This document shows, in pieces, positions 30,001 to 33,000 of a stretch of DNA of 39,873 nucleotides (position 1 is the first letter of the stretch; each line of letters opens with the position of its first letter). This DNA comes from a virus: UHGV virus genome UHGV-0062059, one strand, 5' to 3'. Position numbers: made by a program.

Positions 30001-33000
30001 ATGAAAACTCAATTGATGGGAGAGCGCATTCGCGCTCGGAGAAAAGAACTCAAGATCAGGCAGGCCGCACTTGGAAAGATGGTCGGCGTGTCTAATGTTG
30101 CCATATCTCAGTGGGAACGCTCTGAGACAGAGCCAAATGGAGAGAATCTTCTCGCCCTGGCTAATGCGTTGAAGTGTTCCCCTGACTATCTGATGAAAGG
30201 AGAGGAAAGTCTTTCAAACATTGCCTATCACAGTAGGCATGATCCAAGAGGGTCATACCCTCTGATTAGCTGGGTGAGCGCAGGATGCTGGATGGAAGCT
30301 GTAGAACCATATCATAAGCGTGCAATAGATAACTGGTACGATACAACCGTAGACTGTTCAGAAGATTCGTTTTGGTTGGACGTGAAGGGAGACTCAATGA
30401 CGGCTCCGGCCGGTCTCAGTATCCCTGAAGGAATGATAATACTCGTCGATCCTGAAGTAGAGCCGCGTAACGGGAAACTGGTAGTTGCAAAGCTCGAAGG
30501 AGAAAACGAGGCAACTTTCAAGAAGTTAGTTATTGATGCAGGCAGGAAGTTTCTAAAACCACTTAACCCACAATATCCGATGATCGAGATCAACGGAAAC
30601 TGCAAAATCATCGGCGTAGTTGTCGATGCAAAACTAGCAAACCTTCCATAAGGGGGGCATTCGCCCCTTTTTTTTATTTCCTTTAAAAATCAAAGCCAAA
30701 CTTAAGTTACGAAAGAAAATTTAAGTTTTCTTCAAAAATACTCTTGACCATTAATTAAAGAGATCTTAAATTTAAGCCATCAGCAGGACGCTGGTAGCCA
30801 AACGGAACAGATTGGCAGGCTCTTTAACATTGATGGGATTGTCCCGCCGAAATGCGGGAACCAAAGAGTAGTTGGCTTTGGGGTGACGTGAAGTGCAGCT
30901 GCACGACGGCAACTGGAAGATAAGCACCCGGCGCGTCACCGCCAAAGTCAATCATCGGAGGTCAACATGACAGTAGTCATTACATATCTGGCTGACGATA
31001 ACGCCAGAAATCGCCGCAGAGCACGCAGACAGGCTCAACGTGAACAGGCAATGCAAGAGCAGCGACTGGCGCGAAAAATTGCGCTAAAGCTCTCTGGTTG
31101 CGTCAGAGCAGATAAAGCAGCATCACTCGGAAGCCTTCGCTGTAAGAAAGCAGAAGAAGTCGAGCATAAACAGAACCGTATTTACTACCGCAAGCCACGC
31201 AGTGAAATGGGTGTGACTTGTGTTGGTCGCCAGAAAATAAAATTAGGCAGCAAACCACTTATTTGAGAGGAATTAATATGTCATCAATCCGCTTAACTAC
31301 GAGAATGAAAGAGGAAATCGCTCGTAACGCTTTAATTAAGTCTGGGGTTTTCACTGAACTTGAAGAAGTAACAAAGTTAAAGAACCAGCTTGCACTTGAC
31401 GCCAGAGTTATTGCGTTTGGCGGTAAAAAGAAAACTGAGGAAGTGGATCAGTTATCATCCAAGTTGGTAGCTATAAGTGAAGAACTTGAAAAGATGGGAT
31501 GTTCATTTTACTCATACGATGTTAGTTCTACTTCAATTTATCTGACTGTATCTGGCAGAAGGGTTGGATGGCATTCATATGGGAAAGACGGCAACGGCGA
31601 AGATATATTGCTCCCTACTCCGACCAAAGATAAATGCATGTTTAGCGCAGAACACGAAATAACAAAAAGGTTTGATGAAATCTGCGCATTGCAACAAAAA
31701 CTTGAAGCCAAGAAAAAGGATATCGAATCAAATGTATGGGCTGCTTTGAACTCAGTCACAACAGTTAAGCGACTTATTGAAGTTTGGCCTGAAAGCAAAG
31801 AATTGCTACCAAAAGAAGCAGATAAAGCAAGTACAGCACTTCCTGCTTTACGGGTAGAAGATTTGAATAAGATGATTGGACTTCCTTCCGAGGCCGCATA
31901 GTCGGCCTTTATTTTTGGCACTAACAACAGAATAAACACTGCACTGTGTATTCATTCCAACGAGTGAATACACGGAGCAATGTCGCTCGTAACTAAACAG
32001 GAGCCGACTTGTTCTGATTATTGGAAATCTTCTTTGCCCTCCAGTGTGAGGGCCTTTTTATATGCATACCAATAACGCTTCACTCGAGGCGTTTTTCGTT
32101 ATGTATAAATAAGGAGCACACCATGCAATATGCCATTGCAGGGTGGCCTGTTGCTGGCTGCCCTTCCGAATCTTTACTTGAACGAATCACCAGTAAATTA
32201 CGTGACGGATGGAAAAGAGTTGAGGTCTTATTATGCGCAATGAAATAGCCATTAATCACCAGATGCTTCGTGCTGCACAGAACAAAGCAGTAATAGCCAG
32301 ATTTATTGGTGATTCAAAAATGTGGCTTGAAGCAAATAAAGCGATGAAATCAGCTATCAACCTTCCGTGGTATCGCAGGAAATGAGTTTTACAGATAACT
32401 GGTCAGACGAAGAATTCATTCGTCAGATGAACAAAATGCTCAATCAGCACAAAGAACAGGAGAAAGATGATGATTCTGACTCTGAATGATAAGCGTGAAA
32501 TATCGCAAATAATCGCAAGTTTTACTGATGAAGATTACGAGCGAATCAACAGTGAAGTTGTTCGCCTCTGCAAACGTTGCGACCCAATAAGCGAAATGCT
32601 TCGCTCATATAAACCAGATGAACACACTAAGGACGCTATCGACTGGCTGGAAGATGATGATTGTAACTATCAGGAAAAAGCCGCTGAATGGTTCTGGGAT
32701 GCAATAACCGAAAGAGTTAAGGCTGAATATGCCTTCGCAATATTCAAACGCAGACACATTTATGGAGAAGCAGCATGAGCAATATCGTTGAATTCGTTAA
32801 ACAGCAGGAGCAGTTATTCTGCGGAGCATTGACTGAACAGACGGTGACATGGGCTAAGGAAAGCCAGTTTGCAATTCAGTATTTCCAGAAAAATGATTAC
32901 CTGGCTAAAACAGCACTGGCAAATCCAACCAGCGCACAGAACGCCATCATCAATGTTGCGGCGATCGGCATCACCTTAAACCCTGCAAGCAAACTGGCTT

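What the first reader, a model, noticed from the sequence alone, without database searches (positions are those of the whole stretch)
31278..31901. Unknown 207-aa protein as first gene after N, in the ral/sieB slot
This position in lambdoid early-left operons is a known hotspot for anti-restriction and exclusion genes. The protein is soluble with no recognisable motifs and is followed by three terminator hairpins and an inverted repeat, so it is expressed immediately after N. It is a candidate anti-defense or exclusion factor.
Basis: inference. Interest (0 to 1): 0.6.

Follow-up and report, generated by a model that had tools for sequence, protein, structure and literature searches.

The report
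Nmad5-family early gene after N
The 207-codon gene is real and is the first gene after the antiterminator N, but it is not an orphan: it belongs to the catalogued, functionally untested Nmad5 phage protein family, an optional cassette found in variable early-gene slots, so an anti-defence role is plausible but unproven.

Summary
The ORF at 31278-31901 (+) is real. It has a GAGG ribosome-binding site and starts 11 nt after an N-like antiterminator gene. Three terminator-like hairpins and a 22-nt inverted repeat follow it, then cIII and kil.

It is not motif-free. It is a full-length match to Pfam PF18757 (Nmad5, E 1e-71). The identical protein is already in public databases as "Nmad5 family putative nucleotide modification protein". 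About 4% of complete E. coli genomes carry the gene, as do phages HK542, mEp235 and Stx1 phages.

The predicted fold is a helical bundle with a small beta insert. It resembles no solved structure and shows no catalytic signature. This phage has no base-modification genes in the regions examined.

Across 36 lineages the neighbours are mostly cI-type repressors, DNA polymerase A, SSB, nucleases and recombinases. The gene is optional: it is present in 19 of 76 otherwise conserved replication modules, in a slot that also holds a SIR2-like candidate defence gene.

The only experiment on the family ties a Dhillonvirus homologue to sensitivity to the Tmn defence system.

Best reading: a non-enzymatic early accessory protein of phage-host conflict acting around DNA replication. 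Anti-defence is plausible but unproven, and prophage exclusion is unlikely. The family is already known; its function is open.

The parts
30744..30772 (+). pL-like sigma-70 promoter (TTGACC, 17 nt spacer, TAAATT) downstream of the cI-like repressor gene (30001-30651)
   Evidence: Consensus scan.
30818..30859 (+). nutL-like site: boxA-like GGCTCTTTAACA (30818-30829) and boxB-like hairpin TCCCGC-CGAAAT-GCGGGA (30842-30859)
   Evidence: Read directly from the sequence. The assignment rests on my knowledge of lambdoid nut sites and was not tested further.
30967..31266 (+). N-like antitermination protein, 99 aa, with an arginine-rich motif NARNRRRARRQAQRE
   Evidence: phrog_271 'anti-termination protein N-like', E 3.9e-36. 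Pfam N_peptide gives only E 8.7e-4, below its cut-off.
31267..31270 (+). Shine-Dalgarno GAGG, 7 nt before the ATG of the Nmad5 gene
   Evidence: Sequence.
31278..31901 (+). Nmad5-family protein gene, 207 aa, a single domain that spans the whole protein
   Evidence: Pfam PF18757, E 1.2e-71, residues 4-203 against profile 1-206/206. phrog_1965. AF2 model pLDDT 85. The identical protein is deposited and named.
31890..31909 (+). First terminator-like hairpin, overlapping the stop codon, followed by TATTTTTGG. It belongs to the mobile cassette.
   Evidence: The right-hand homology boundaries all lie at or beyond 31920.
31936..31983 (.). Inverted repeat with 22-nt arms, 82% complementary, 4 nt apart
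32036..32093 (+). Second and third terminator-like hairpins (32036-32053 and 32074-32093)
32110..32248 (+). cIII thermoregulator RNA element (32110-32168) and the cIII ORF (32123-32248). This is the next gene of the operon and marks the right edge of the N-cIII slot.
   Evidence: Rfam RF01804, 88.5 bits, E 8.5e-22. PGAP annotates the same gene in a relative as CIII.

Best explanation
The gene encodes a stand-alone Nmad5-family protein (PF18757). I read it as a non-catalytic early accessory protein of phage-host conflict, not a base-modifying enzyme.

Shown:
- It is transcribed from pL on the same terminator-free stretch as N, so it should appear at the very start of infection and before N-dependent read-through is needed. 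This rests on predicted sites.
- It is an optional, horizontally exchanged cassette.
- Its fold is a helical bundle with a small beta hairpin and a short C-terminal helical region.
- The region most conserved across the family is the C-terminal motif SVTTVK[KR]LLExWPExxELLP...LPAxxVxxLNxxIGLP, whose last part is modelled with low confidence.

Inferred:
- It works by binding. The C-terminal motif docks on a partner that is conserved across proteobacterial hosts: DNA, a DNA-replication or recombination protein, or a defence sensor.
- This helps phage DNA replication get started in hosts that would otherwise attack or sense it.
- The same surface can be what a defence system such as Tmn perceives.

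The exact partner is unknown.
For: 1. Family and architecture. Full-length PF18757 match. 2306 clusters at 50% identity match the family profile at E <= 1e-3, and the best 150 listed are mostly about 190-220 aa. All 46 diverse members hit only Nmad5 consistently.

3. Early expression. There is an 11-nt gap after N, and no + strand terminator-like site between 30772 and 31890. In two other lineages it comes right after the cI-like repressor gene (L147, L087).

4. Accessory behaviour.
- It is in 211 of 5426 complete E. coli genomes.
- Cassette boundaries are sharp and it follows three N/Nun alleles.
- GC is 40% against 47% and dN/dS is 0.39.
- An IS element disrupts it in Stx2a phages.
- Only 19 of 76 DUF2800-SSB-PolA modules carry it. 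The same slot elsewhere holds a SIR2-like PADLOC candidate (E 4e-158), DUF2303, AntA-like, Band_7 and opposite-strand membrane ORFs, or nothing.

5. DNA-replication setting. Among 150 same-strand neighbours from 36 lineages: DNA_pol_A 11, Peptidase_S24 repressors 11, DUF2800/PDDEXK 6, helicase 6, Enc34 SSB 5, YqaJ 3, RecT 3, ERF 2. Its stop overlaps the start of DEDD-type exonuclease genes in L089 and L091.

6. Link to defence. In Dhillonvirus, Tmn escape mutants carry K296E or K216E in Nmad5. The deletion mutant was constructed and still propagated, and wild-type nmad5 could not be cloned (PMC11846954). K296 aligns with R165 of this protein, inside the conserved TTVK[KR]L motif. Tmn is directly triggered by another dispensable replisome-associated phage protein, T2 RIIB (PMC13001434).
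Against: - No direct evidence that any Nmad5 protein inhibits a defence system.
- In Dhillonvirus the deletion did not change Tmn sensitivity, so the wild-type protein neither blocks Tmn nor is its only trigger.
- A family this large and well conserved across hosts is atypical of fast-evolving anti-defence proteins. It would also fit a generic DNA-metabolism helper.
- tblastn matches it in many Dhillonvirus and Pseudomonas Yuavirus-type phage records, so it may be a stable part of those lytic genomes rather than sporadic cargo. I did not count how many members of each genus lack it.
- Immediate-early expression rests on consensus terminator and promoter scans only.
- No partner was identified, and binding through the C-terminal motif is inference from conservation plus low model confidence.
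Confidence: 0.4

Rival explanations
1. It is an ordinary, non-essential helper of phage DNA replication or recombination with no role in host conflict, for example an adaptor that bridges SSB, exonuclease and polymerase, or recruits a host replication protein.
For: - It neighbours DNA polymerase A, Enc34-type SSB, DUF2800/PD-(D/E)XK nuclease, helicases, YqaJ, RecT and ERF in many lineages.
- Its stop overlaps the start of DEDD exonuclease genes. It lies beside a Cas4-like exonuclease in an N4-like phage and just before replication protein O in Vibrio phage Athena1.
- In this window it heads the operon that carries RecT and Gp157.
- Wide conservation with a fixed motif suggests a universal partner such as DNA.
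Against: - It is absent from 57 of 76 otherwise intact DUF2800-SSB-PolA modules, in several of which PolA starts directly after SSB. It is therefore not a required part of that machine.
- Lambdoid phages that carry it have no polymerase of their own.
- In Dhillonvirus it sits among head genes on the opposite strand, and the deletion mutant still propagated.
- No fold similarity to known SSAPs, loaders, clamps or Gam-type proteins.
Confidence: 0.22
2. It takes part in nucleotide or DNA base modification, as the database name says, for instance as a specificity or scaffold subunit of a hypermodification pathway.
For: - The family name derives from gene-neighbourhood analysis (Iyer et al. 2013, cited; paper not held).
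- In M6/Yuavirus-type Pseudomonas phages it lies in the thymidine hypermodification region (PMC9476957; PAE1 context).
- A thymidylate synthase is adjacent in Klebsiella phage MY01.
- One homologue sits beside PurZ and DatZ-type genes of a 2-aminoadenine phage.
Against: - This phage has no candidate modification enzyme among the early-left, replication and nin-region ORFs examined.
- Among 150 neighbours from 36 lineages no modification family appears more than once: Thy1 1, MT-A70 1.
- The fold has no enzyme-like relative and no conserved catalytic residues.
- From my own recollection of Lee et al. 2018 (not checked here), the hypermodification pathways were rebuilt in vitro without it.
Confidence: 0.08
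3. It is a prophage-encoded superinfection exclusion or defence factor that protects the lysogen, as sieB and rexAB do in lambda.
For: - It occupies the slot where lambda carries sieB (my knowledge of the lambda map).
- The equivalent slot in other temperate phages carries a SIR2-like candidate defence gene in the same orientation.
- The prophage-borne gene is widespread in E. coli.
Against: - No promoter-like site of its own. It lies 11 nt behind N on the repressed pL transcript.
- No membrane segment and no PADLOC match.
- The family is common in strictly lytic phages such as Dhillonvirus, N4-like phages and Yuavirus.
- IS disruption is tolerated in Stx2a prophages.
Confidence: 0.06

Closest known systems
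Nmad5 (Pfam PF18757; PHROG 1965), e.g. Dhillonvirus PhiSMS22 CDS6 and RefSeq 'Nmad5 family putative nucleotide modification protein'
   Same: - Full-length profile match and the same motifs.
- 31% identity over residues 104-203 to the PhiSMS22 protein, which itself matches PF18757 at E 1e-55.
- The residue changed in the Tmn escape mutants is a conserved K/R in both proteins.
   Different: - In Dhillonvirus the gene lies among head genes on the opposite strand and is annotated with an 80-residue N-terminal extension. Here it is the first gene after N in a temperate phage.
- No phenotype is known for the lambdoid copy.
Lambda ral and sieB, and P22 gene 17 / ral / sieB (occupants of the N-cIII interval)
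   Same: Same map position in the early-left operon, between N and cIII. All are accessory and dispensable. The positional statement is from my knowledge of the lambda and P22 maps.
   Different: - No sequence similarity; only Nmad5 is found in Pfam.
- From my knowledge: Ral is a 66-aa modulator of type I restriction-modification, and SieB is a membrane protein with its own promoter.
- This protein is 207 aa, soluble and has no promoter of its own.
T4/T2 RIIB
   Same: The Tmn preprint describes RIIB as an early-expressed replisome component, and nonsense mutants of it are viable. Point changes in it decide whether the Tmn NTPase arrests infection (PMC13001434). This parallels Nmad5 K296E in Dhillonvirus.
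   Different: - No sequence or fold relation was tested or is expected.
- RIIB is membrane-associated and is a proven direct trigger.
- For Nmad5, deletion does not abolish Tmn sensitivity.
Lambda Gam and T7 gp5.9 (nuclease inhibitors encoded inside replication/recombination modules)
   Same: Small non-enzymatic proteins encoded beside polymerase, exonuclease or recombinase genes. They act by binding a host complex that is conserved across hosts (my knowledge).
   Different: - No fold match in searches of solved PDB structures; I did not check that the Gam and gp5.9 entries are in the libraries searched.
- HK542 carries both this gene and Abc2, so an anti-RecBCD role would be redundant there.
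- The protein is not acidic (pI 6.2).

Membership tests
Nmad5 (PF18757) | Score above the curated Pfam gathering threshold over the whole domain | tested here: met
   241.5 bits against a cut-off of 27. Residues 4-203 match profile positions 1-206 of 206.
Nmad5 (PF18757) | Stand-alone protein of about 200 aa with the family motifs: N-terminal RL..I..NA..K(A/S)G, LGG, GG hairpin, and C-terminal SVTTVK[KR]L..WPE..ELLP ... LN..IGLP | tested here: met
   Alignments A1 and A2. R5, G48, G49, G93, W170-P171-E172, L176, P178, N197 and G201 are all present.
Nmad5 (PF18757) | Genomic association with nucleotide or base-modification enzymes (the basis of the family's name) | tested here: not met
   No such enzyme among the window's early-left, replication and nin ORFs. 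Among 150 neighbours in 36 lineages, Thy1 appears once and MT-A70 once. The association does hold in Yuavirus.
Nmad5 (PF18757) | A biochemical activity | not testable with these tools
   None has been reported. The only experimental data are the Tmn escape mutations.
Known anti-restriction / anti-defence proteins (Ral, Ocr, ArdA, Gam, gp5.9 and other families or structures in Pfam/PDB) | Sequence or fold similarity to a characterised inhibitor | tested here: not met
SieB-type superinfection exclusion | Membrane protein expressed from its own promoter in the lysogen | tested here: not met
   No hydrophobic segment; best 19-residue hydropathy is 0.6. No promoter-like site between pL and the ORF.
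Known or candidate defence systems (PADLOC-DB) | Match to a defence-protein model | tested here: not met
   0 families at E <= 1.
Rad52/Red-beta/RecT/Erf-type annealing proteins and Gp157 | Fold or profile similarity | tested here: not met

The most novel reading that the evidence does not exclude
Nmad5 proteins are a large, misnamed class of non-enzymatic early phage proteins. Their conserved C-terminal motif engages a host surveillance or DNA-handling component, with Tmn-type transmembrane NTPases as one interactor. Under this reading the lambdoid copy behind N is a true counter-defence gene carried as exchangeable hotspot cargo.
Probability: 0.25. Interest if true: 0.6.

Novelty: already known. 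Interest (0 to 1): 0.33.

Why it matters
The gene is common. It is in about 4% of complete E. coli genomes, in Stx1 prophages, in the laboratory phages HK542 and mEp235, and in the therapy-relevant Dhillonvirus genus. It carries a database name that implies an enzymatic function for which this analysis finds little support. If it turns out to be a counter-defence factor, or a protein that defence systems sense, it would affect host-range prediction and phage engineering. It would also give a function to a family of more than two thousand sequence clusters. As it stands, the finding is a correctly located member of a known family whose function is open, not a new kind of element.

Tried and rejected

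2. Consistent weak hits to a second Pfam family across 46 members: none. The single YfjL_C hit (E 0.004) is not shared by other members.

3. Relation to the neighbouring Sipho_Gp157 protein: hhalign probability 0.2%.

4. NCBIfam and PADLOC: no match.

5. The 'NMAD' domain in validated DefensePredictor defence systems turned out to be Nmad2, not Nmad5. It is irrelevant here.

6. The original Nmad description (Iyer 2013) is not held. The polyvalent-protein paper does not mention it.

7. Literature on mEp235, PhiR12 and Enc34 gave nothing on this gene.

8. The scan of species-representative genomes returned only 4 loci because the usable peptide patterns were too specific.

9. The idea that Nmad5 is a fixed component of the Enc34-type replication module was tested and rejected. 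Only 19 of 76 modules have it.

10. An anti-RecBCD role was considered and set aside. HK542 already has Abc2, this window has a Gp157 protein next to RecT, the protein is not acidic, and it shows no Gam-like fold.
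Full report
**What is there**

The window is a P22-like/lambdoid temperate phage genome. Its closest relatives are phages Gally, Kapi1, CUS-3 and HK97. On the + strand the order is:
- a cI-like repressor (30001-30651);
- a pL-like promoter (30744-30772);
- boxA/boxB-like nutL sequences (30818-30859, read);
- a 99-aa N-like antiterminator (30967-31266; phrog_271 E 3.9e-36);
- 11 nt later, behind a GAGG ribosome-binding site, the ORF of the finding (31278-31901, 207 codons).

Three terminator-like hairpins follow on the + strand at 31890-31909, 32036-32053 and 32074-32093. The region gave 8 sites against 1.6 +/- 1.3 in shuffles. A 22-nt inverted repeat lies at 31936-31983.

Next comes the lambda cIII thermoregulator RNA (RF01804, 88.5 bits, 32110-32168) with cIII (32123-32248). 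After it come kil, RecT, a Sipho_Gp157 protein and Ead/Ea22.

The protein is indeed soluble-looking: no hydrophobic segment, GRAVY -0.35, pI 6.2.

The protein is not motif-free.
- It matches Pfam PF18757, 'nucleotide modification associated domain 5' (Nmad5), from end to end: E 1.2e-71, 241.5 bits against a cut-off of 27. It also matches PHROG 1965, function unknown.
- The identical sequence is deposited on 218 contigs and is named 'Nmad5 family putative nucleotide modification protein' by NCBI and UniRef.
- The gene occurs at 90-100% nucleotide identity in 211 of 5426 complete E. coli genomes.
- It occurs in 77 phage records, including HK542, HK244, mEp235, Kapi1 and Stx1a-converting phages.
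- In Stx2a-converting phages it is split by an IS3-family element.

The family is large. A profile search of 1.84 billion cluster representatives gives 2306 clusters at E <= 1e-3 and 147 at E <= 1e-30. The best 150 listed are mostly about 190-220 aa and match the profile over nearly their whole length. In the phage collection it is found in Escherichia (lambdoids and Dhillonvirus), Pseudomonas (Yuavirus/M6-like), Vibrio, Bordetella, Salmonella and Klebsiella phages, including N4-like phages.

**The protein itself**

An AlphaFold2 model built on 27 homologues has pLDDT 85 and pTM 0.70. It shows:
- three N-terminal helices (8-72);
- a beta hairpin (86-100) with a loop region;
- a long helix (127-158);
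- short C-terminal helices (163-199), with low confidence at 184-191 and at the end.

Across 46 diverse members the best-conserved part is the C-terminal third: SVTTVK[KR]LLExWPExxELLP, a variable linker, then LPAxxVxxLNxxIGLP. Invariant or near-invariant residues are R5, G48, G49, G93, T162, L166, W170, P171, E172, L176, P178, N197 and G201. This looks like a structural or binding signature, not a catalytic one. No second Pfam family is hit consistently.

Among 64 E. coli alleles dN/dS is about 0.39, and every one of the 83 E. coli-type loci keeps the full length. It is a real gene under moderate constraint.

**Does the database name fit?**

The name comes from neighbourhood analysis of phages with hypermodified DNA (reference found; the paper itself is not held). 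That association is real in some phages:
- M6/Yuavirus-type Pseudomonas phages (PMC9476957; PAE1);
- a thymidylate synthase next door in Klebsiella phage MY01;
- PurZ and DatZ-type genes nearby in a 2-aminoadenine phage.

This window, however, holds no candidate modification enzyme in the regions examined.
- The early-left operon has RecT, Gp157, DUF5405, Ead/Ea22 and DUF551.
- The right arm has CII, O, a DnaB-like helicase, NinB, an antirepressor, YbcO, RusA and Q.

I fetched 175 loci, collapsed them to 36 lineages at 70% identity, and scanned 150 same-strand neighbours of at least 150 aa within 4 kb against Pfam. The counts were:

| Family | Members |
|---|---|
| DNA_pol_A | 11 |
| Peptidase_S24 (cI-type repressors) | 11 |
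| DUF2800 / PD-(D/E)XK nuclease | 6 |
| helicase | 6 |
| Enc34-type SSB | 5 |
| HNH | 5 |
| AAA_24 | 3 |
| YqaJ | 3 |
| RecT | 3 |
| ERF | 2 |
| SSB | 2 |
| Thy1 | 1 |
| MT-A70 | 1 |

The dominant settings are therefore the early operon of temperate phages and DNA replication/recombination modules. Base-modification pathways are not a dominant setting.

This sample is shaped by the peptide pattern used to find the loci, so the proportions are indicative only.

**Core replication part or optional cargo?**

A recurrent arrangement is DUF2800 nuclease, then Enc34-type SSB, then Nmad5, then DNA polymerase A (L139, L137, L164). A variant is cI, Nmad5, unknown gene, DUF2800, SSB, PolA (L147, L087).

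To see whether Nmad5 is an integral member, I collected 80 loci through the SSB.
- 76 of them carry PolA as well, and 19 of those 76 contain Nmad5.
- The distance from SSB to PolA ranges from overlap to 2.5 kb.
- When Nmad5 is absent the interval is empty or holds other cassettes: DUF2303 (11), a SIR2-like protein matching PADLOC candidate PDC-S25 at E 3.8e-158 (7), an AntA-like protein (5), Band_7 (3), HNH, or opposite-strand membrane ORFs.

Nmad5 is thus exchangeable cargo of a variable slot.

The E. coli copy behaves the same way.
- Homology to the window breaks at 31160-31259 on the left and 31920-32060 on the right, so the unit is the gene plus its first terminator.
- 80 of 83 loci have an antiterminator-type gene upstream, drawn from three different families: 51 of the window's N type, 19 of another N type, and 10 of HK022 Nun type.
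- The gene's GC content is 40% against 47% for the window.

**Expression**

No terminator-like site lies on the + strand between the pL-like promoter and the ORF's stop codon, and none separates N from the ORF. The only promoter-like site in 30600-32300 is pL itself. By analogy with lambda, where the N-independent pL transcript ends at the first terminator after N (my knowledge), the gene should be part of the immediate-early transcript and silent in the lysogen. This is an inference from consensus scans.

**Experimental information on the family**

In Dhillonvirus phages PhiSMA8 and PhiSMS22, escape from the Tmn defence system mapped to one equivalent substitution in Nmad5 (K216E / K296E).
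- Reverting it restored sensitivity.
- Introducing it conferred resistance.
- Deleting the gene left the phage able to propagate and still Tmn-sensitive.
- The wild-type gene could not be cloned, apparently because it is toxic (PMC11846954).

The PhiSMS22 protein is a bona fide Nmad5 (E 1e-55). Its K296 aligns with R165 of the window protein, in the conserved TTVK[KR]L motif.

A 2026 preprint shows that Tmn is directly activated by T2 RIIB, which it describes as an early-expressed replisome component (nonsense escape mutants are viable). It also shows that a single residue in RIIB decides activation (PMC13001434).

So a surface of Nmad5 matters to at least one defence system, but the wild-type protein has not been shown to inhibit anything.

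**Interpretation**

Putting these together, I favour (confidence about 0.4) a non-catalytic early accessory protein of phage-host conflict. It would work by binding, through the conserved C-terminal region, to DNA or to a conserved DNA-handling or surveillance component at the start of phage DNA replication.

A pure replication/recombination helper is the main rival (0.22). It explains the neighbours and the breadth of the family. It does not explain the 75% absence from intact modules or the hotspot behaviour.

A role in base modification (0.08) fits the name and a minority of contexts, but not this phage or the fold.

Prophage-expressed exclusion (0.06) is disfavoured by the lack of a promoter and of membrane segments, and by the family's abundance in lytic phages.

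The slot, the timing and the accessory nature hold. The anti-defence function remains a hypothesis. The claim of 'no recognisable motifs' is wrong.

**Novelty and score**

The protein is an already catalogued family member, identical to deposited sequences, so it is 'already known' as an object. What this analysis adds:
- the family's name is poorly supported outside a few hypermodifying phages;
- the gene is optional cargo of variable early slots in at least two unrelated genome architectures;
- the residue that governs Tmn escape lies in the family's most conserved motif.

Interest is moderate to low (0.33). The gene is a reasonable candidate for a knockout and defence-panel experiment in HK542 or mEp235.

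Noticed in passing
window 25698-28091 (-): The DnaB-like replicative helicase is 797 aa and has a LAGLIDADG / Hom_end homing-endonuclease-like insertion at about residues 393-454, between the DnaB N- and C-terminal domains. This looks like an intein or an inserted endonuclease.
   Followed up: no
L179 (Stx2a-converting phage LC616058) 238-2025: In Stx2a-converting phages the Nmad5 gene is interrupted at about codon 33 by an IS3-family element, with two transposase ORFs on the other strand. A 152-aa remnant ORF is left. The gene is thus dispensable for those prophages.
   Followed up: partly
L180-L259, interval between the Enc34-type SSB gene and DNA polymerase A: This junction is a variable cargo slot, ranging from overlap to 2.5 kb. 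It holds Nmad5 (19 of 76), DUF2303 (11), a SIR2-like protein matching PADLOC candidate PDC-S25 at E 4e-158 (7), AntA-like (5), Band_7 (3), HNH, several unannotated opposite-strand membrane ORFs, or nothing.
   Followed up: partly
window 32110-32168 (+): A clear match to the lambda cIII thermoregulator RNA element (RF01804, 88.5 bits) lies in front of a 41-aa cIII gene (32123-32248), which overlaps the start of kil (32233-32385).
   Followed up: yes
L016, L060 and eight other E. coli-type loci, gene upstream of Nmad5: In 10 of 83 E. coli-type loci the gene in front of Nmad5 is of the HK022 Nun type rather than N. The cassette therefore travels behind both antiterminator and terminator-type early regulators.
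   Followed up: partly
window 28088-29038 (-): The replication protein O homologue contains a His/Ala-rich repetitive stretch (AHEAAQTTAHDAAHDE...AHESAHEAAQTTAH). The DNA beneath it may be the iteron-bearing origin (Pfam Phage_rep_O).
   Followed up: no
L089/L090 (MH622939-type contig) 6001-10800: A distant Nmad5 homologue sits in a phage that carries PurZ-like adenylosuccinate synthetase, dATP/dGTP pyrophosphohydrolase and HD-domain genes, the signature of a 2-aminoadenine (Z) genome. Its stop overlaps the start of an RNase_T-type exonuclease gene.
   Followed up: no
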